Source: Escherichia coli
Lineage (GTDB): Bacteria > Pseudomonadota > Gammaproteobacteria > Enterobacterales > Enterobacteriaceae
DNA: 21,033 nucleotides
Strand: one strand, 5' to 3'
NCBI RefSeq assembly: GCF_003334335.1
Contig: NZ_QOWQ01000051.1
The stretch's first letter is position 1, and every line of letters starts with the position of its first letter. The notes below the pieces were generated by a model that was not told the DNA's origin, ran no database searches, and saw only the letters and a program-made list of their open reading frames with translations. Shown here in pieces: positions 8,390-19,708 of the stretch. The position numbers were made by a program, and so were the translations under genes.

Positions 8390-8887
8390 ATGTCTGAATA
8401 TCGTCGTTATTACATCAAGGGGGGAACATGGTTTTTCACGGTGAATTTACGAAATCGTCGAAGCCAACTTTTGACCACCCAGTACCAGATGCTCCGTCAC
8501 GCCATTATTAAAGTTAAGCGAGACAGGCCTTTTGAAATCAACGCCTGGGTCGTTTTGCCAGAGCATATGCACTGTATCTGGACATTACCTGAAGGCGATG
8601 ATGATTTTTCCTCGCGCTGGCGGGAAATTAAAAAGCAATTTACCCATGCTTGTGGATTGAAAAATATCTGGCAACCACGTTTTTGGGAGCACGCCATCCG
8701 CAATACCAAAGATTATAGGCATCATGTTGATTATATTTATATAAATCCAGTAAAGCATGGTTGGGTAAAGCAAGTGAGTGATTGGCCATTCTCAACGTTC
8801 CATCGCGATGTCGCGCGAGGGTTATATCCCATCGATTGGGCGGGGGACGTAACGGATTTTAGTGCCGGGGAGCGTATCATTTCATAA
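8390..8887 (+). CDS. rayT: REP-associated tyrosine transposase RayT (TnpA-REP, IS200/IS605 HUH family)
   Basis: 165 aa with the HUH motif (PEHMHCIW) and a C-terminal Tyr region. REP arrays flank it on both sides, the REPtron arrangement. Confidence 0.85.
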   Translation: MSEYRRYYIKGGTWFFTVNLRNRRSQLLTTQYQMLRHAIIKVKRDRPFEINAWVVLPEHMHCIWTLPEGDDDFSSRWREIKKQFTHACGLKNIWQPRFWEHAIRNTKDYRHHVDYIYINPVKHGWVKQVSDWPFSTFHRDVARGLYPIDWAGDVTDFSAGERIIS

Positions 8888-13375: not shown

Positions 13376-14128
13376 TCAGCCCAGCCCCAGCCCGCGAATG
13401 CTGGTGGTGAGCGTGCCGATGGTCAGCGACCAGCCGTCGATCAGCACAAACAGCATCAGCTTAAAGGGCAGCGAAACAATCAGCGGCGACAGCATCATCA
13501 TCCCCATCGCCATCAGTACGCTTGCGACAATCAGGTCGATAACCAGAAACGGGATGTAAATCATAAAGCCAATCTGGAAAGCGGTTTTCAGCTCGCTCAA
13601 CACATAGGCGGGCACCACGATAGAGAGATCCTGGTCGGCGGCATTGCCCTTCGCGCCTCCGATGGTCATGATTTGCGCCATCGCTTTTTTGTCGGTCTGC
13701 GCCAGCATAAAGCGTTTGAGTGGCGTCGCGGCGGTGCTTAACGCATCGGTCAGGGTAATCTGATCGTTTTCGAACGGCACTACTGCGTGGTCGTAAATAT
13801 TGAGCCAGATGGGGCGCATCACCAGCATGGTGAGGGAGAGCGCAATGCCAATCAGAATGCGGTTTGGCGGCGTTTGTTGCAGCCCTAGCGCCTGGCGCAG
13901 CAGCGACAGCACGATAATAAAGCGCGCAAAGCAGGTCATCATCAGCGCCATCGTCGGCAGCAAACCGACGAGGGTCATCAGAATCAGTACCTGAATTTTG
14001 ACGCTGTACTCCTGAGTGTTGCCGTGGGTGACCACGTTAAGCAGCGCAATATCGCCGCCCTGGGCGATTGCCAGCGGCGCAAGCGCCAGCAGCCCAAGGC
14101 CCAGCGTCAGTTGAGTGCGGCGTTTCAT
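13376..14128 (-). CDS. lfiP: Flagellar export gate protein, FliP homolog (Flag-2 LfiP)
   Basis: 250 aa with an N-terminal signal peptide (…LALAPLAIAQ) and a FliP-like transmembrane core. Its start overlaps the lfiN stop by 4 nt. Confidence 0.85.
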   Translation of the reverse strand: MKRRTQLTLGLGLLALAPLAIAQGGDIALLNVVTHGNTQEYSVKIQVLILMTLVGLLPTMALMMTCFARFIIVLSLLRQALGLQQTPPNRILIGIALSLTMLVMRPIWLNIYDHAVVPFENDQITLTDALSTAATPLKRFMLAQTDKKAMAQIMTIGGAKGNAADQDLSIVVPAYVLSELKTAFQIGFMIYIPFLVIDLIVASVLMAMGMMMLSPLIVSLPFKLMLFVLIDGWSLTIGTLTTSIRGLGLG

Positions 14129-14496
14129 GGTGCCAGGTCGTTGATATCGCGGGTGTTAAATTCCAGCACGCGCAGGCCGTACTTCTCGTTGACCACCACC
14201 ACTTCCGCTTTGCCCAGCAGGATATTGTTCACTTTAATATCCAGCGGCTCCCCGGCGAGTTTATCCAGCTCAATCACCGTGTCGTCGTCGATGTTAAGGA
14301 GGTCGGCTAACATGATCTCCACCGACGACACTTCCAGCGTTAAGGTCACCGGAATGCGTTTTAGCAGCGTCATCGAGTCGGAAAAACGGTCTTCCAGGCG
14401 GGTGACCAGCGTTTCAGCGTCGGCGGATTTTGCGACAGGCGCAACTTCATCGGTGAGGCCAAAATCCCCGGCTAAAATATCTTCTTGCTTACTCAT
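14125..14496 (-). CDS. lfiN: Flagellar motor switch / C-ring protein, FliN homolog (Flag-2 LfiN)
   Basis: SpoA-like C-terminal domain (…VTLTLEVSSVEIMLADLLNIDDDTVIELDKLAGEPLDIKVNNILLGKAEVVVV). The start at 14496 (MSKQEDI…) is chosen for coupling to the lfiM stop; the track's longest start is 14556. Confidence 0.75.
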   Translation of the reverse strand: MSKQEDILAGDFGLTDEVAPVAKSADAETLVTRLEDRFSDSMTLLKRIPVTLTLEVSSVEIMLADLLNIDDDTVIELDKLAGEPLDIKVNNILLGKAEVVVVNEKYGLRVLEFNTRDINDLAP

Positions 14497-15340
14497 GGCT
14501 ATTCTCATTTTTGCCCGCCAGCTCCGACAAAAACAGTTTGTCTTTGTCTTCCACAATCAGGGCGCTAAATAATTCAGATTGCCCAATCGCCACCGGGAAC
14601 GTTTCTCCCAGCGAGATGGGTAAAATATCCCCGGCTTTTATCTGCGTGAGATCCGCGACATTCATCGATAGCTCGGCGATTTTGACGTTCAGGGTCAGCG
14701 GCAGGGAGCGGATGATCTCTTTAATCAGGGCCGGTTTATTGACGGATTTCGCCACCTGCTGCGGTTTACTGTGCTCGCTGTGGCGGATCAGATTTAAAAT
14801 AAAATCGGTGTGGGCGTCGTCGAGCAAAATACGAAAACAGCTCTCTTCATCGCCCGCAAGGGTAAAGGTTAATTGATACGCCCAGTGGGTAATCACCGTG
14901 CTGCTGTCCAGCTTTAATTTCAGCGCAATACCGGAGGTTTGCAGATTAAATATCAGCGTGCAGATATCCAGCGCGAGTCGGTTCTTTAATCGTGTTTCGG
15001 TTTTGGTCGGCAGGCCGTTATGCGCTTTCGCCTCTTCAAGAGACGACTCCAGACCATAAAAATTGCCCAGCAGCATTAACAGCAAGGAGCGATCAATATC
15101 AAACGCCAGATGCCCGACCTGGGAAATCATTAGTTCAGCGTTTTTATTAATAATATCCATTTCGCAGCCAATCTTTTTTAAGGTGATATTGCTGCGATGC
15201 TTTTTGAGAAAGTAGCTGCCCAGATGCGAATCAATCACGTCAAAATTCCCCGTAAACAGGGTCGGCAGGTGATGGTAGGGGCGTCCGAGCCGATTACCTT
15301 CTAATTTAAAGATGCCTGGCGTTTTACTGTACTTCAGCAT
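14489..15340 (-). CDS. lfiM: Flagellar motor switch protein, FliM homolog (Flag-2 LfiM), short form
   Basis: 283 aa. The C-terminal region (…LTQIKAGDILPISLGETFPVAIGQSELF…) resembles the FliM SpoA-like domain. No LSQxEIDALL-type N-terminal peptide is present. Confidence 0.75.
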   Translation of the reverse strand: MLKYSKTPGIFKLEGNRLGRPYHHLPTLFTGNFDVIDSHLGSYFLKKHRSNITLKKIGCEMDIINKNAELMISQVGHLAFDIDRSLLLMLLGNFYGLESSLEEAKAHNGLPTKTETRLKNRLALDICTLIFNLQTSGIALKLKLDSSTVITHWAYQLTFTLAGDEESCFRILLDDAHTDFILNLIRHSEHSKPQQVAKSVNKPALIKEIIRSLPLTLNVKIAELSMNVADLTQIKAGDILPISLGETFPVAIGQSELFSALIVEDKDKLFLSELAGKNENSHE

Positions 15341-15485
15341 GGCTTACTTTCTCTGCTGTAATGGTATGGGCGATTTTGTGCACGCAAATCCGGCAGTGAC
15401 ACAAGGTGAGGTATTAAATAGAGGGGGAGTGAAAGGGGCAAATTATTAATAGGATGAAAAAATAATTAAATTATTAAAGGGCTAG

Positions 15486-15602
<117 letters not shown>

Positions 15603-15726: not shown

Positions 15727-16713
15727 ATGTCTGAACTTATTGCAACTGCCGCTTCCAGCATTAACGCTTTTACTCTGGCAAAGCGTGTCGCCGCATTTAA
15801 CGTGCCGGTGCTCATTCAGGGCGAAACCGGCGCGGGCAAAGAATGCGTGGCGAAATATATTCACACCGTAGCCTTTGGTGAAAATGATAACGCGCCCTAT
15901 ATCGGCGTGAACTGCGCAGCGATCCCGGAAAACATGCTGGAAGCTACATTATTTGGCTACGACAAAGGCGCATTTACCGGCGCAATTGCCAGTGTGCCAG
16001 GAAAAATGGAACTAGCGAATAACGGCACCTTATTACTCGATGAAATTGGCGATATGCCGCTGGCGCTACAGGCCAAAATATTACGCGTATTGCAGGAGCA
16101 ACAGGTTGAGCGATTAGGCAGCAACCGACAAATTAAACTCAATTTTCGCCTGATTGCCTGCACCAATAAAAACCTTGAACAGGAAGTGGCTGCCGGGCGT
16201 TTTCGTGAAGATCTCTATTATCGTCTGGCGGTTATTCCTATTACCATGCCGCCACTGCGTGAACGTCTGAACGATATTATTCCGCTGGCAGAGTCATTTA
16301 TAAAAAAGTACTCCACGGTGCTGGTGAAAAATATCACCCTTTCAGAATCTACCCGCCGGGCGCTGCTCAATTACCGCTGGCCCGGCAACGTGCGCCAGCT
16401 GGAGAACGCCATTCAGCGGGGAATGATTTTAAATCGCGACGGCGTGATTTACCCGGATGCCTTAGGCCTGCCGGAAACGGACGTTGCCGACCGCAGCGAA
16501 CTGCAATGGCCTGTTCAGCCCGCCGTCCACATTGCCGAAACCAGCGATTTGGGCCAGCACGGACGAAGCGCCCAGTATCAATATATCGCTGACCTGATGC
16601 GTAAATATCAGGGCAACCGCAGCAAAATCGCCGACCTGTTAGGCATTACCCCGCGCGCACTGCGCTATCGACTGGCCTCCATGCGCAAGCAAGGTATCGA
16701 AGTTTTCTCCTGA
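15727..16713 (+). CDS. lafK: Sigma54-dependent transcriptional activator (AAA+ plus HTH, no N-terminal regulatory domain), LafK-like
   Basis: 328 aa with Walker A GETGAGKE, the GAFTGA sigma54-contact loop, Walker B LLLDEIGDM and a C-terminal Fis-type HTH (…IADLLGITPRALRYRLASMRK). The AAA+ domain starts within the first few residues. An in-frame stop lies at 15649-15651 upstream. Confidence 0.85.
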   Translation: MSELIATAASSINAFTLAKRVAAFNVPVLIQGETGAGKECVAKYIHTVAFGENDNAPYIGVNCAAIPENMLEATLFGYDKGAFTGAIASVPGKMELANNGTLLLDEIGDMPLALQAKILRVLQEQQVERLGSNRQIKLNFRLIACTNKNLEQEVAAGRFREDLYYRLAVIPITMPPLRERLNDIIPLAESFIKKYSTVLVKNITLSESTRRALLNYRWPGNVRQLENAIQRGMILNRDGVIYPDALGLPETDVADRSELQWPVQPAVHIAETSDLGQHGRSAQYQYIADLMRKYQGNRSKIADLLGITPRALRYRLASMRKQGIEVFS

Positions 16714-17073: not shown

Positions 17074-18720
17074 ATGAATGCACAAATAAAGAAGTTAACC
17101 CAGGCGTTTCCGGCGTTTCGACTGCGTCTCGTAGATAACAAACGCTGGGCGTTGATGGCGGGAGTGGGGCTTGCCGTGGCGGCGACGGCGATTATCGTCA
17201 GCGTGCTGTGGACCGGTAATCGCGGCTACGTTTCGCTCTACGGACGCCAGGAAAATCTGCCCGTGTCGCAGATTGTCACGGTGCTGGACGGCGAAAAGCT
17301 CAGCTACCGCATCGACCCGCAGAGCGGGCAGATTCTGGTGCCGGAAGATGAACTGTCGAAAACGCGTATGACCCTTGCCGCGAAAGGCGTGCAGGCGATA
17401 TTGCCCAGCGGCTACGAGCTGATGGACAAAGACGAAGTGCTCGGCAGCAGCCAGTTCGTGCAGAACGTGCGCTATAAACGCAGCCTCGAAGGGGAGCTGG
17501 CGCAGAGCATTATGTCGCTGGACGCGGTGGAGAGCGCGCGGGTGCATCTGGCGCTCAACGAAGAAAGCTCGTTTGTGGTCAGCGATGAGCCGCAAAACAG
17601 CGCCTCGGTGGTGGTGCGTCTGCACTACGGCGCGAAGCTGAATATGGACCAGGTGAACGCCATCGTGCATCTGGTTTCCGGCAGTATTCCGGGGCTGCAG
17701 GCCAGCAAAGTCAGCGTCGTCGATCAGGCGGGAAATCTGCTAACCGACGGCATTGGCGCGGGCGAGGCGGTCTCTGCCGCTACCCGTAAACGCGATCAGA
17801 TCCTCAAAGACATTCAGGACAAAACCCGCGCCAGCGTGGCGAACGTGCTGGATTCGCTGGTCGGCAGCGGGAATTACCGTGTCAGCGTGATGCCGGATCT
17901 CGACCTCAGCACCATCGACGAAACTCAGGAACACTACGGAGACGCGCCGAAAATAAACCGCGAAGAGAGCGTGCTGGACAGCGACACCAATCAGGTGGCG
18001 ATGGGTGTGCCCGGCTCTCTCAGCAACCGTCCGCCGGTTGCGGCGAATCAGATGACCAACGGCACGGAAGAAAATCGCTCGCCGGAAGCGTTATCCAAAC
18101 ACAGCGAAAGCAAGCGCGATTACTCTTACGACCGCAGCGTCCAGCATATTCAGCATCCCGGCTTTGCGGTGAAACGCCTCAACGTGGCGGTGGTGCTCAA
18201 TCAAAACGCCCCGGCGCTGAAAAACTGGAAGCCGGAACAGACCACGCAGCTTACCGCGTTGCTGAACAATGCCGCCGGGATCGACGCGCAACGTGGAGAT
18301 AACCTGACGCTTTCACTGCTTAACTTTGTCCCGCAGGTGGTCCCGGTCGAACCGGTGATCCCGCTGTGGAAAGATGACAGCGTGCTGGCCTGGGTGCGGC
18401 TGATTGGCTGCGGCCTGCTGGCGCTGTTGTTGCTGTTCTTTGTGGTGCGCCCGGTAATGAAACGCCTGACGGCGGTGCGTGCGCCGGTTATCACACCAGA
18501 ACCGGAAGCTGTCAGCGAACCGTGGATCGCTATGCCGGAAGAGGAGCGCAAAAACGTCGATCTGCCGTCGCTGCCCGGCGATGACAGCCTGCCTTCGCAG
18601 AGTTCCGGCCTCGAAGTGAAACTCGAGTTCCTGCAAAAACTGGCCATGAGCGACACCGATCGCGTAGCCGAAGTTCTCAGACAATGGATCACCAGCAATG
18701 AGCGAATTGACAACAAATAA
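17074..18720 (+). CDS. lfiF: Flagellar MS-ring protein, FliF homolog (Flag-2 LfiF)
   Basis: 548 aa with an N-terminal TM segment, a large periplasmic region and a second TM near the C-terminus (…LIGCGLLALLLLFFVV…). Length and topology fit FliF rather than the shorter injectisome SctJ. Confidence 0.85.
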   Translation: MNAQIKKLTQAFPAFRLRLVDNKRWALMAGVGLAVAATAIIVSVLWTGNRGYVSLYGRQENLPVSQIVTVLDGEKLSYRIDPQSGQILVPEDELSKTRMTLAAKGVQAILPSGYELMDKDEVLGSSQFVQNVRYKRSLEGELAQSIMSLDAVESARVHLALNEESSFVVSDEPQNSASVVVRLHYGAKLNMDQVNAIVHLVSGSIPGLQASKVSVVDQAGNLLTDGIGAGEAVSAATRKRDQILKDIQDKTRASVANVLDSLVGSGNYRVSVMPDLDLSTIDETQEHYGDAPKINREESVLDSDTNQVAMGVPGSLSNRPPVAANQMTNGTEENRSPEALSKHSESKRDYSYDRSVQHIQHPGFAVKRLNVAVVLNQNAPALKNWKPEQTTQLTALLNNAAGIDAQRGDNLTLSLLNFVPQVVPVEPVIPLWKDDSVLAWVRLIGCGLLALLLLFFVVRPVMKRLTAVRAPVITPEPEAVSEPWIAMPEEERKNVDLPSLPGDDSLPSQSSGLEVKLEFLQKLAMSDTDRVAEVLRQWITSNERIDNK

Positions 18721-19708
18721 GAGCAACAGCTACCTGGAACAGGCGGCGATCCTGCTGCTGTGTCTGGGCGAAGAGGCGGCGGCGACGGTGATGCAAAAAC
18801 TCAGCCGCGAAGAAGTAGTGCGCCTGAGCGAAAACATGGCGCGGCTTTCCGGCGTCAAAACCAGCATGGCGCGCAAAGTGATCAATAACTTCTTTGATGA
18901 GTTCCGCGAACAGAGCGGGATCAACGGCGCATCGCGATCCATGTTGCAGGGTATTCTCAACAAAGCCCTCGGCACCGAGATCGCCAGCAGCGTGATCAAC
19001 GGCATCTACGGCGATGAGATCCGCTCGCGGATGGCGCGCCTGCAATGGGTGGAACCACGCCAGCTGGCGATGCTGATCTCCGAAGAGCATTTGCAATTAC
19101 AGGCGGTGTTCCTCGCGTTTCTGACGTCGGAAATCTCGGCGGCGGTGCTCTCGTATCTCAATGAATCGGTGCAAAACGAAATTCTCTATCGGGTGGCGAA
19201 ACTCAACGACGTTAACCGCGACGTGGTGGATGAACTGGACAGGCTGATCGAACGCGGCCTGTCGGTGCTCTCTGAACATGGCTCGAAGGTGAAAGGCATC
19301 AAACAGGCGGCGGATATCGTCAACCGCTTCCAGGGTAACCAGCAGGTGATCCTCGACCAGATGCGCGAGCGCGACGAAGAGGTGCTGGAGCAGCTCCAGG
19401 ATGAGATGTACGACTTCTTTATCCTCAGCCGCCAGAACGAAGAGGTACGTCGACGTCTGCTCGACGAAGTGCCGATGGAAGACTGGGCGGTGGCGCTGAA
19501 AGGCACCGAAGCCCTGTTGCGGCGCTCGATTTACGCGGTAATGCCAAAACGTCAGGTGCAACAACTGGAAGCGATCACCGCGCGCCTGGGGCCGGTGCCG
19601 GTCAGCCGTATCGAACAGATCCGCCGCGAAATCATGGGCATCGCCCGTGAACTGGAAGAGGCGGGCGAAATTCAGCTACAGCTCTTTGCGGAACAGACGG
19701 CGGAGTAA
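18698..19708 (+). CDS. lfiG: Flagellar rotor protein, FliG homolog (Flag-2 LfiG)
   Basis: 336 aa, alignable by eye to FliG throughout (ILLLCLGEEAAATVMQKLSREEV…; …EAGEIQL at the C-terminus). Overlaps the lfiF 3' end by 23 nt. Confidence 0.85.
   Translation: MSELTTNKSNSYLEQAAILLLCLGEEAAATVMQKLSREEVVRLSENMARLSGVKTSMARKVINNFFDEFREQSGINGASRSMLQGILNKALGTEIASSVINGIYGDEIRSRMARLQWVEPRQLAMLISEEHLQLQAVFLAFLTSEISAAVLSYLNESVQNEILYRVAKLNDVNRDVVDELDRLIERGLSVLSEHGSKVKGIKQAADIVNRFQGNQQVILDQMRERDEEVLEQLQDEMYDFFILSRQNEEVRRRLLDEVPMEDWAVALKGTEALLRRSIYAVMPKRQVQQLEAITARLGPVPVSRIEQIRREIMGIARELEEAGEIQLQLFAEQTAE

What the first reader, a model, noticed from the sequence alone, without database searches (positions are those of the whole stretch)
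14489..15340. FliM homolog lacks the N-terminal CheY-P binding peptide
LfiM is about 283 aa against roughly 334 aa for E. coli FliM, and begins MLKYSKTPGIFKLEGNRL… with no LSQAEIDALL-type motif, while the middle and C-terminal switch domains are recognisable. This suggests the Flag-2 rotor is not directly controlled by CheY-P through FliM, or uses a different input. No che genes occur in this window.
Basis: inference. Interest (0 to 1): 0.45.

Follow-up and report, generated by a model that had tools for sequence, protein, structure and literature searches.

The report
Flag-2 FliM lacks CheY docking peptide
The second (Flag-2, lateral-type) flagellar system of E. coli encodes a very diverged rotor-switch protein FliM that lacks the short N-terminal peptide where the chemotaxis signal CheY-P normally docks.

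Summary
lfiM (14489-15340, minus strand) is a 283-aa ORF. An in-frame TAA lies two codons upstream of its ATG. RefSeq and all homologues use the same start. No LSQxEIDALL-type peptide occurs in LfiM, in LfiN, or in any frame of the window.

LfiM is a real but extreme FliM. Pfam and TIGRFAM FliM models fail on it (27.8 bits against a 219.6-bit cut-off). A family profile, hhalign (99.4%; LfiM 10-273 aligns to FliM 35-317) and an AlphaFold model (pLDDT 89.6; best PDB match Salmonella FliM) show the CheC-like middle domain and the SpoA domain. FliM residues 1-34 have no counterpart.

This is a family trait, not an E. coli peculiarity. All 83 diverse relatives and all 110 Vibrionaceae lateral FliMs lack the motif. 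That includes V. alginolyticus, whose lateral motor is nevertheless reported to respond to CheY. So "no canonical docking" is supported, while "no CheY control" is not established.

The gene is under strong purifying selection (dN/dS about 0.04) and is present in 24% of complete E. coli genomes. The general point is already in the literature on lateral flagella.

The parts
14489..15340 (-). lfiM CDS, 283 aa: lateral/Flag-2-type FliM (C-ring protein)
   Evidence: ORF and translation. RefSeq CDS WP_000922499.1. hhalign to canonical FliM: probability 99.4%, E=1.7e-21. AF2 model pLDDT 89.6; best PDB match is Salmonella FliM 8umd_C, E=6e-11.
15344..15346 (-). In-frame TAA stop two codons upstream of the lfiM ATG; excludes any N-terminal extension
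   Evidence: Identical in five other E. coli alleles.
15314..15340 (-). Codons 1-9 (MLKYSKTPG): the only residues N-terminal to the position equivalent to FliM residue 35. They take the place of FliM 1-34 (CheY-P peptide plus linker).
   Evidence: hhalign aligns LfiM 10-273 to FliM 35-317. No EIDAL-type match. AF2 pLDDT 63 for residues 1-10.
15263..15313 (-). Codons 10-26 (IFKLEGNRLGRPYHHLP): counterpart of the FliM linker L1 (about residues 35-51). It includes the family signature LGRPxHxL and covers the most conserved 16-residue stretch of the protein (residues 11-26).
   Evidence: Residues 11-26 rank 1 of 268 sliding windows among 17 enterobacterial homologues. L18, G19, R20, P21 and H23 are invariant or nearly so across 83 diverse members. 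Alignment to FliM 35-51.
14768..15271 (-). Middle domain (residues 24-191) with a CheC/FliM_M-like fold
   Evidence: AF2 secondary structure and pLDDT above 90. Foldseek hits to FliM middle-domain crystal structures 4gc8, 2hp7, 4fhr (TM 0.58-0.65) and to CheX/CheC/FliY. Family profile aligns to Salmonella FliM 101-296. Not detected by Pfam PF02154.
15044..15061 (-). F94-Y-G-L-E-S99: position of the FliG-binding GGxG motif of canonical FliM (G132-G-D-G135). Only the first Gly (G96) is kept.
   Evidence: hhalign column mapping. Y95 and G96 are nearly invariant in the family.
14513..14713 (-). C-terminal SpoA (FliMN_C) domain, residues 210-276
   Evidence: Pfam PF01052, residues 210-269, E=1.1e-6. 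Found in 83 of 83 family members. BLASTP 29% identity to E. coli FliM 250-286.
14125..14496 (-). lfiN CDS (123 aa): FliN partner of LfiM. Its start overlaps the lfiM stop by 8 nt.
   Evidence: TIGR02480 fliN 83.4 bits against a cut-off of 84.05. RefSeq CDS. Sequence.
14455..14496 (-). LfiN residues 1-14 (MSKQEDILAGDFGL): conserved N-terminal peptide, followed by a hypervariable linker
   Evidence: 100 enterobacterial LfiN sequences: consensus MSKQEDILEQGFEL with 60-90% majority, then 20-50% in the linker, then a nearly invariant SpoA domain. Not significantly EIDAL-like (3-4 bits).
18698..19708 (+). lfiG: FliG partner of LfiM. It carries EHLQ in place of the EHPQ of the FliM-binding EHPQR motif.
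   Evidence: TIGR00207 fliG 200.1 bits against a cut-off of 226.7. Sequence inspection.

Best explanation
lfiM encodes the FliM subunit of the C-ring of the E. coli Flag-2 (lateral-type) flagellar system. It keeps the two structural domains: a CheC-like middle domain expected to sit under LfiG, and a SpoA domain expected to assemble with LfiN. It has no counterpart of FliM residues 1-34, that is, the CheY-P docking peptide LSQxEIDALL and its flexible tether.

This is not a truncation or an E. coli-specific loss. It is the ancestral state of the whole 260-300-aa FliM family of lateral/secondary flagella in Enterobacterales, Vibrionaceae, Pseudomonas and beta-proteobacteria.

Shown here: correct gene start, absence of the motif, FliM fold and homology, family-wide absence, purifying selection.

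Inferred: a Flag-2 motor cannot capture CheY-P by the canonical tether-and-dock mechanism. It is therefore most likely blind to chemotaxis, or at most modulated with low affinity through another surface, as must be the case for the CheY-responsive lateral motor of V. alginolyticus.
For: 1. Start is correct. In-frame TAA two codons upstream; same start in RefSeq; same start in six E. coli alleles and in 17 genera-level homologues.
2. Motif is absent. Regular expressions give 0 hits in the window and L001 in six frames, 0 of 83 diverse family members and 0 of 110 Vibrionaceae lateral FliMs, while 4 of 4 canonical controls are positive. FliM_N HMM: controls 24-33 bits, family 6.4 bits or less.
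3. Homology and fold. A2 profile against Salmonella FliM, E=4e-10. hhalign 99.4%, with LfiM 10-273 aligned to FliM 35-317. AF2 pLDDT 89.6; the top PDB matches are FliM in the C-ring and FliM_M crystal structures.
4. Distinct family. Only 199 cluster representatives out of 1.84 billion reach E<=1e-3. Nearly all are 260-300 aa, and canonical FliMs appear only in the weak tail.
5. Same family and same synteny in V. alginolyticus: lafK | fliM-fliN-fliPQR-flhBA.
6. LfiM is the outlier of its cluster. It reaches 13% of the TIGRFAM cut-off, against 88-171% for FlhA, FlhB, FliP, FliQ, FliR, FliF, FliG and FliN.
7. The gene is maintained. It is present in 1292 of 5426 complete E. coli genomes, with dN/dS 0.02-0.08 at dS up to 0.27.
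8. Literature. Lateral FliG and FliM have long branches, and lateral motors are described as having lost chemotactic ability (PMC8042155). S. putrefaciens lateral motors do not respond to chemotaxis (PMC8203827). Pseudoalteromonas CheY does not bind lateral FliM (PMC10304486).
Against: 1. The V. alginolyticus lateral motor is reported to be controlled by CheY (Kojima 2007, cited in PMC10304486), although its FliM (P0173) also lacks the peptide. Absence of the peptide therefore does not prove insensitivity to CheY.
2. The LfiM N-terminal region is not a degenerate stub. Residues 11-26 are the most conserved stretch of the protein and residues 1-16 are above average, so it could bind something.
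3. The FliN patch implicated as a secondary CheY site looks partly retained: LfiN keeps the VVVV run seen in canonical FliN (sequence; the comparison rests on my recalled E. coli FliN sequence and on V113-V114-A115 as cited).
4. No experiment on E. coli Flag-2 rotation was found, and expression of Flag-2 in E. coli is itself uncertain (PMC6993521).
Confidence: 0.8

Rival explanations
1. The CheY-docking peptide is present in LfiM but diverged. Residues 4-15 (YSKTPGIFKLEG) would be the homologue of FliM 6-17 (LSQAEIDALLNG) and would still recruit CheY-P.
For: Same position and same 12-residue length, with shared S, L and G. The closest non-E. coli relatives read LSETSGVFRLEG (P0077) and YSANEVEEVIKIE (P0079, Pantoea), the latter being EIDAL-like. 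The N-terminal tail is conserved above the protein average in Enterobacterales.
Against: The residues that build the CheY-binding helix (E10-I11-D12, L14) are replaced by P-G-I and K, and Pro-Gly breaks a helix (established knowledge of the CheY-FliM_N complex). The HMM and regular expressions find nothing. hhalign places LfiM residue 10 opposite FliM residue 35, which leaves only 9 residues for FliM's 34. The segment is not conserved outside Enterobacterales. There is no flexible linker between the tail and the domain.
Confidence: 0.06
2. CheY docking has moved to LfiN, as in FliY-type switches. The conserved LfiN N-terminal peptide (MSKQEDILEQGFEL) on its variable tether would be the CheY-P, or other regulator, capture site.
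For: LfiN has a motif-plus-hypervariable-linker architecture across 100 LfiN sequences. The motif has an acidic-then-hydrophobic pattern (EDLLEQGF). LfiN N-termini crowd the top of the noise in the FliM_N HMM search. FliY of B. subtilis carries an EIDAL motif at its N-terminus (PMC12826062). Something other than FliM_N must mediate the CheY effect in V. alginolyticus.
Against: Scores are only 3-4 bits with E about 8-18, which is not significant. The motif looks more like the N-terminal DDLWADAL of canonical FliN (Salmonella FliN), which is not known to bind CheY. The motif is not conserved in Lelliottia or V. alginolyticus lateral FliN.
Confidence: 0.06
3. The gene start is mis-called, or the gene is truncated, and a CheY-binding N-terminus lies upstream.
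For: None found.
Against: In-frame TAA at 15344-15346. No motif in any frame of the upstream 386 bp, which holds REP-like palindromes. The M-L-K-Y start is identical in all homologues, and family lengths are 260-300 aa.
Confidence: 0.01
4. lfiM is a decaying gene of a defunct system, and the missing peptide is part of that erosion.
For: Flag-2 has been regarded as non-functional in some E. coli, through deletion or through the lfgC frameshift in strain 042 (PMC6993521). IS1 interrupts lfiM in one strain. Ferreira et al. attribute the long lateral FliM branches to relaxed constraint (PMC8042155).
Against: dN/dS is 0.02-0.08 among six alleles with dS up to 0.27, all six have intact 283-codon ORFs, and 1283 of the 1292 genomes with a match cover at least 80% of the gene. 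The peptide is absent from the whole family, including the lateral systems of Vibrio, which are used for swarming.
Confidence: 0.03

Closest known systems
Lateral FliM of Vibrio alginolyticus / V. parahaemolyticus (fliM2, VPA1540)
   Same: Same protein family: hit by the LfiM profile, and a member of alignment A2. Short (272 aa). Same LG(R/K)PxH motif near the N-terminus. No EIDAL peptide. Only FliMN_C is seen by Pfam. Same gene order lafK | fliM-fliN-fliPQR-flhBA.
   Different: Only about 20% identical to E. coli LfiM. The N-terminal tail differs (MENRVSEPISDSQLLDVELLGKPIH). The Vibrio system is expressed and is reported to respond to CheY by slowing (Kojima 2007 via PMC10304486). Nothing comparable is known for E. 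coli.
FliM2 of the secondary (lateral) system of Shewanella putrefaciens CN-32
   Same: A secondary, proton-driven lateral motor reported not to be controlled by the chemotaxis system (PMC8203827). From my memory of Bubendorfer et al. 2014 (paper not held, not verified here), FliM2 lacks the CheY-binding N-terminus.
   Different: The sequence was not retrieved here, so membership of the same family is assumed from the literature and from the gamma-proteobacterial lateral clade described in PMC8042155.
Canonical FliM (E. coli / Salmonella, PDB 8UMD chain C)
   Same: Same two-domain architecture and fold, and same operon position upstream of fliN. hhalign 99.4% over 264 columns. Best structural match.
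   Different: 14% identity. FliM residues 1-34 (CheY-P peptide plus tether) are missing. About 10 residues are deleted around the R94 loop. GGxG is reduced to one Gly. LfiM falls far below the Pfam and TIGRFAM FliM thresholds.
FliY (B. subtilis, T. maritima)
   Same: A precedent for a CheY-docking EIDAL peptide carried by the FliN-like subunit rather than, or as well as, FliM (PMC12826062). LfiN has a conserved N-terminal peptide on a tether.
   Different: LfiN has no CheC-like domain, and its peptide does not score as EIDAL.
SctQ (YscQ/HrcQ/SpaO) of injectisomes
   Same: A C-ring-like protein of similar length with no CheY input. Weak NCBIfam hits to the C-terminal region of LfiM.
   Different: The LfiM middle domain is CheC/FliM_M-like, the best structural matches are FliM rather than SctQ, and the gene sits in a complete flagellar cluster.

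Membership tests
Canonical FliM (flagellar switch protein; Pfam PF02154 + PF01052, TIGR01397) | N-terminal CheY-P binding peptide (LSQxEIDALL) on a flexible linker | tested here: not met
   Regular expressions and the FliM_N HMM are negative. hhalign leaves FliM 1-34 unmatched.
Canonical FliM (flagellar switch protein; Pfam PF02154 + PF01052, TIGR01397) | CheC-like middle domain | tested here: met
   AF2 model with pLDDT 89.6. Foldseek hits to FliM_M structures 4gc8, 2hp7 and 4fhr, and to CheX/CheC. Profile alignments.
Canonical FliM (flagellar switch protein; Pfam PF02154 + PF01052, TIGR01397) | GGxG motif that contacts the EHPQR motif of FliG | tested here: not met
   The aligned positions read G96-L-E-S, and only the first Gly is conserved in the family. 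LfiG has EHLQ. Whether the interface is kept by co-variation was not testable.
Canonical FliM (flagellar switch protein; Pfam PF02154 + PF01052, TIGR01397) | C-terminal SpoA (FliMN_C) domain | tested here: met
   PF01052 at residues 210-269, E=1.1e-6.
Canonical FliM (flagellar switch protein; Pfam PF02154 + PF01052, TIGR01397) | Scores above the curated family thresholds | tested here: not met
   TIGR01397 gives 27.8 bits against a cut-off of 219.6. PF02154 is not detected in LfiM or in any of 83 relatives.
Canonical FliM (flagellar switch protein; Pfam PF02154 + PF01052, TIGR01397) | Encoded immediately upstream of fliN in a flagellar export and basal-body operon | tested here: met
   Gene order lfiM-lfiN-lfiP-lfiQ-lfiR-lfhB-lfhA.
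Lateral / Flag-2-type short FliM | Length 260-300 aa, with the N-terminus ending about 10-25 residues before an LG(R/K)PxHxL motif | tested here: met
   283 aa. L18, G19, R20, P21 and H23 are invariant or nearly so in 83 members.
Lateral / Flag-2-type short FliM | No EIDAL-type CheY/FlhG-binding peptide | tested here: met
   0 of 83 and 0 of 110 members carry it.
Lateral / Flag-2-type short FliM | Synteny: a divergent sigma-54 activator lafK and fliE-J on one side, fliM-N-P-Q-R-flhB-A on the other | tested here: met
   Window and L001. The same order in V. alginolyticus L002 and Lelliottia L003.
Lateral / Flag-2-type short FliM | Motor not switched by CheY-P (functional property claimed for lateral motors) | not testable with these tools
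   The literature is split. Insensitive in S. putrefaciens and Pseudoalteromonas. CheY-responsive in V. alginolyticus. No data for E. coli.

The most novel reading that the evidence does not exclude
The Flag-2 C-ring has its own input site in place of the EIDAL peptide. That site would be the highly conserved LfiM N-terminal segment (MLKYS...KLEGNRLGRPYHRLP), the conserved LfiN N-terminal peptide on its hypervariable tether, or both. It would recruit a regulator: CheY-P through a non-canonical surface (as must happen in V. alginolyticus), or a different effector such as a c-di-GMP/PilZ protein of the MotL/FilZ type. E. coli strains carrying Flag-2 would then run two rotors under different control logic.
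Probability: 0.15. Interest if true: 0.55.

Novelty: already known. Interest (0 to 1): 0.2.

Why it matters
The finding explains, at sequence level, why lateral-type motors are generally treated as non-chemotactic. It places the E. coli Flag-2 rotor, present in about a quarter of complete E. coli genomes, in that class.

Two points go slightly beyond the literature read here:
- LfiM is under strong purifying selection, and its N-terminal L1-like segment is its most conserved part. This argues against simple relaxed drift of the lateral C-ring.
- The CheY-responsive V. alginolyticus lateral motor lacks the docking peptide too, so a non-canonical CheY contact must exist somewhere in this family.

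Neither point changes the overall picture.

Tried and rejected
- Upstream extension or alternative start. Rejected: in-frame TAA two codons upstream.
- Frameshifted or relocated EIDAL peptide elsewhere in the window or in the Flag-2 part of L001. Six-frame regular-expression and HMM scans were negative.
- Standard domain tools on LfiM. Pfam sees only FliMN_C, NCBIfam FliM scores far below its cut-off, single-sequence phmmer against the PDB gives E=1.2, and BLASTP against FliM aligns 38 residues. These gave no information on the middle domain.
- First AF2 run on 17 close homologues. It failed (pLDDT 47). It was repeated with 83 diverse sequences.
- The search for related loci on genome contigs with alignment A2. 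Organism names came from cluster look-ups instead.
- Sigma-54 promoter consensus upstream of lfiM. No match above chance. The sigma-70 and terminator scan was uninformative.
- Inverted-repeat finder on the intergenic region. It found nothing with a 9-nt seed, while folding showed the REP-like palindromes.
- Papers not held: Ren et al. 2005 (Flag-2), Stewart & McCarter 2003 and Bubendorfer et al. 2014. I therefore could not check whether the absence of the peptide in LfiM, in Vibrio lateral FliM or in Shewanella FliM2 is stated explicitly there.
- Pseudogene hypothesis. Rejected by dN/dS.
Full report
**Context.** The window is E. coli chromosome. It runs yafV-ivy-fadE-gmhA-yafJ-dpaA-yafQ/dinJ-yafL-rayT, followed by cluster 1 of the Flag-2 (lateral-type) flagellar locus. 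On the minus strand are lfhA, lfhB, lfiR, lfiQ, lfiP, lfiN and lfiM. On the plus strand are lafK, lfiE, lfiF, lfiG, lfiH and the start of lfiI. A 2-kb stretch around the finding is 100% identical to several complete E. coli genomes, and RefSeq annotates the same genes there.

The ORF at 14489-15340 (-) encodes 283 aa starting MLKYSKTPGIFKLEGNRL. The sequence upstream reads AAG TAA GCC ATG, so an in-frame stop at 15344-15346 excludes any ATG, GTG or TTG extension. Five further E. coli alleles, 95-98% identical, have the same stop and start. RefSeq uses this start. M1-L2-K3-Y4 are invariant in 17 homologues from other enterobacterial genera that are 49-78% identical overall. Canonical FliM is 334 aa: my recalled E. 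coli sequence aligns end to end with PDB 8umd_C.

Three regular expressions for the CheY-binding peptide found nothing in six frames of the window or of 42 kb of the same locus. An HMM built from five real canonical FliM N-termini scored independent controls at 24-33 bits. The best LfiM-family member scored 6.4 bits, LfiN N-termini 3-4 bits, and everything else in the window or L001 3.0 bits or less. No che gene is annotated across the stretch.

**What LfiM is.** Standard tools see only the C-terminal SpoA domain:
- Pfam FliMN_C covers residues 210-269, and PF02154 (FliM) is absent.
- TIGR01397 gives 27.8 bits against a cut-off of 219.6.
- BLASTP against E. coli FliM aligns 38 residues.

Those methods settle the question.
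- A profile of enterobacterial homologues searched against 1.84 billion cluster representatives found just 199 proteins at E<=1e-3. Almost all are 260-300 aa, and canonical FliMs (with LSQxEIDALL) appear only in the weak tail.
- A profile of 83 diverse members hits Salmonella FliM at E=4e-10. It aligns the DRxLLLxxLxxRYG and TxTExRL blocks with FliM SPSLVFIAVDNLFGG and THTEQRV.
- hhalign against five canonical FliMs gives 99.4% probability (E=1.7e-21) over 264 columns, with LfiM 10-273 aligned to FliM 35-317.
- With the 83-sequence alignment, AlphaFold2 gives pLDDT 89.6. A 17-sequence alignment had given 47.
- Foldseek returns full-length Salmonella FliM from the C-ring cryo-EM structures first (E=6e-11), then FliM middle-domain crystal structures, then CheX, CheC and FliY.

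LfiM is therefore a genuine two-domain FliM. Only nine residues (MLKYSKTPG) stand where FliM has 34, namely the CheY-P peptide 1-16 plus its tether. In the same alignment, GGxG (132-135) corresponds to G96-L-E-S. The FliM loop 90-100 that carries R94 falls in a deletion. R94 is cited as a middle-domain CheY contact in PMC11087270. This part of the alignment has low confidence.

**LfiM is the outlier of its own cluster.** Against the TIGRFAM equivalog cut-offs the scores are FlhA 775/772, FlhB 341/349, FliR 175/169, FliQ 80/89, FliP 241/217, FliF 222/130, FliG 200/227 and FliN 83.4/84.05, but FliM 27.8/219.6. This matches the published remark that FliG and FliM of gamma-proteobacterial lateral motors sit on long branches. 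Ferreira et al. attribute that to loss of chemotactic function (PMC8042155).

**The missing peptide is a family trait.** None of 83 diverse members carries it. These include Lelliottia, Pantoea, Rouxiella, Pseudomonas/Ectopseudomonas khazarica, Iodobacter, Paludibacterium and Photobacterium. None of 110 Vibrionaceae lateral FliMs carries it either. All four canonical controls are positive.

P0173 is the V. alginolyticus lateral FliM. It is 272 aa, the length given for fliM2 in PMC10956519. It lies in the same gene order as Flag-2 cluster 1. P0434 is the V. parahaemolyticus protein. Both begin ME(N/T)RVSE...LDVELLGKPIH, with no EIDAL peptide.

This matters for interpretation. The V. alginolyticus lateral motor is reported to be controlled by the single CheY, which slows a unidirectional motor (Kojima 2007, cited in PMC10304486). 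In contrast, S. putrefaciens lateral motors do not respond to the chemotaxis system (PMC8203827), and Pseudoalteromonas CheY does not bind lateral FliM in a two-hybrid assay (PMC10304486). Absence of the docking peptide is thus compatible with both outcomes. It removes the canonical high-affinity capture step, not necessarily all CheY influence.

**The gene is maintained.** lfiM occurs once per genome in 1292 of 5426 complete E. coli genomes. Among six alleles, dS reaches 0.27 and dN/dS is 0.02-0.08 (pooled pN/pS 0.044). lfiN gives 0.084.

Within Enterobacterales, residues 11-26 (FKLEGNRLGRPYHRLP) are the most conserved 16-residue window of the protein, ranking 1 of 268. By hhalign they correspond to FliM linker L1, residues 36-51. 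Residues 1-16 are also above average. The short N-terminus is therefore constrained rather than vestigial, which leaves room for a different binding partner. That is the basis of the 'novel case', but nothing tested here identifies such a partner.

**Rival readings.**
- A hidden upstream start is excluded by the sequence.
- A diverged docking peptide in LfiM 4-15 has some appeal: same length, shared S, L and G, and an EIDAL-like YSANEVEEVI in one Pantoea relative. However, Pro-Gly replaces the helix core, no method detects the motif, and the segment is not conserved outside Enterobacterales.
- Relocation of docking to LfiN is suggested by a conserved N-terminal peptide (MSKQEDILEQGFEL) followed by a hypervariable linker. 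The peptide scores only 3-4 bits against the FliM_N model. It resembles the DDLWADAL of canonical FliN, and it is not conserved in Lelliottia or Vibrio lateral FliN.
- Gene decay is contradicted by the selection data.

**Comparison and novelty.** LfiM works like, and is a member of, the lateral/Flag-2-type short FliM family. It meets the fold, SpoA-domain and synteny criteria of FliM, but fails the CheY-peptide, GGxG and curated-threshold criteria of canonical FliM.

The Flag-2 locus has been known since 2005. Lateral motors are described in the literature as non-chemotactic with diverged C-ring proteins (PMC8042155). I could not read Ren 2005, Stewart & McCarter 2003 or Bubendorfer 2014 to check whether the missing peptide is stated explicitly there. 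From memory, it is stated for Shewanella FliM2.

I rate the finding as correct, already known in kind, and of low-to-moderate interest. The modest additions are the quantified divergence, the purifying selection, the conserved N-terminal segments of LfiM and LfiN, and the caveat from Vibrio.

Noticed in passing
window 14455-14496 (-), LfiN residues 1-14: LfiN has a conserved N-terminal peptide (consensus MSKQEDILEQGFEL; E. coli MSKQEDILAGDFGL). It is followed by a hypervariable linker of about 25 aa and then a nearly invariant SpoA domain, in 100 enterobacterial sequences. This is a short motif on a tether, and its function is unknown. It resembles the DDLWADAL of canonical FliN and is not significantly EIDAL-like (3-4 bits).
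   Followed up: partly
window 15727-16713 (+), lafK: LafK (328 aa) starts directly at the sigma-54 AAA+ activator domain. It aligns only from about position 120-200 of the NtrC, FlbD and FlgR-type profiles, so it has no receiver domain. V. alginolyticus LafK is 443 aa and the Lelliottia protein is 343 aa.
   Followed up: partly
window about 15520-15602, lfiM-lafK divergent intergenic region: Two REP-like palindromes lie here (DNA fold -27.7 kcal/mol, z -3.6). A 2-kb query containing them hit all 5426 E. coli genomes at a median of 25 places each, while lfiM alone hits one place in 1292 genomes. The intergenic length differs between strains. A rayT REP-associated transposase gene lies at 8390-8887.
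   Followed up: partly
window 14489-15340 compared with NZ_CP024275.1 (hits H1 and H13): In E. coli O6:H16 strain M9682-C1, the lfiM match is split into two pieces by an IS1 transposase, so that strain appears to have an insertionally disrupted lfiM.
   Followed up: no
window 18698-19708 (+) lfiG; window 15044-15061 (-) in lfiM: The two halves of the canonical FliG-FliM contact are both altered. LfiG reads EHLQ where FliG has EHPQ. LfiM reads G-L-E-S where FliM has GGxG. This may be co-variation of the interface.
   Followed up: no
window 15263-15340 (-), first 78 nt of lfiM: Only 2 sites segregate among six E. coli alleles, where about 6.6 are expected from the rest of the gene. Pooled pS is 0.018 against 0.13-0.16 elsewhere. 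This may reflect a nucleotide-level constraint on the translation-initiation region. The sample is small.
   Followed up: partly
window 15269-15271 (-), LfiM residue 24: This window's allele has His24, while five other E. coli alleles have Arg and Arg is nearly invariant in the 17 enterobacterial homologues (RPYHRLP).
   Followed up: no
L002 14261-15058 and L003 16014-16775: EAL-domain (c-di-GMP phosphodiesterase) genes lie close to the fliM...flhA operon in the lateral clusters of both V. alginolyticus (directly downstream of flhA) and Lelliottia (two genes further on). This hints that c-di-GMP, rather than CheY, may be a common input to these systems.
   Followed up: no
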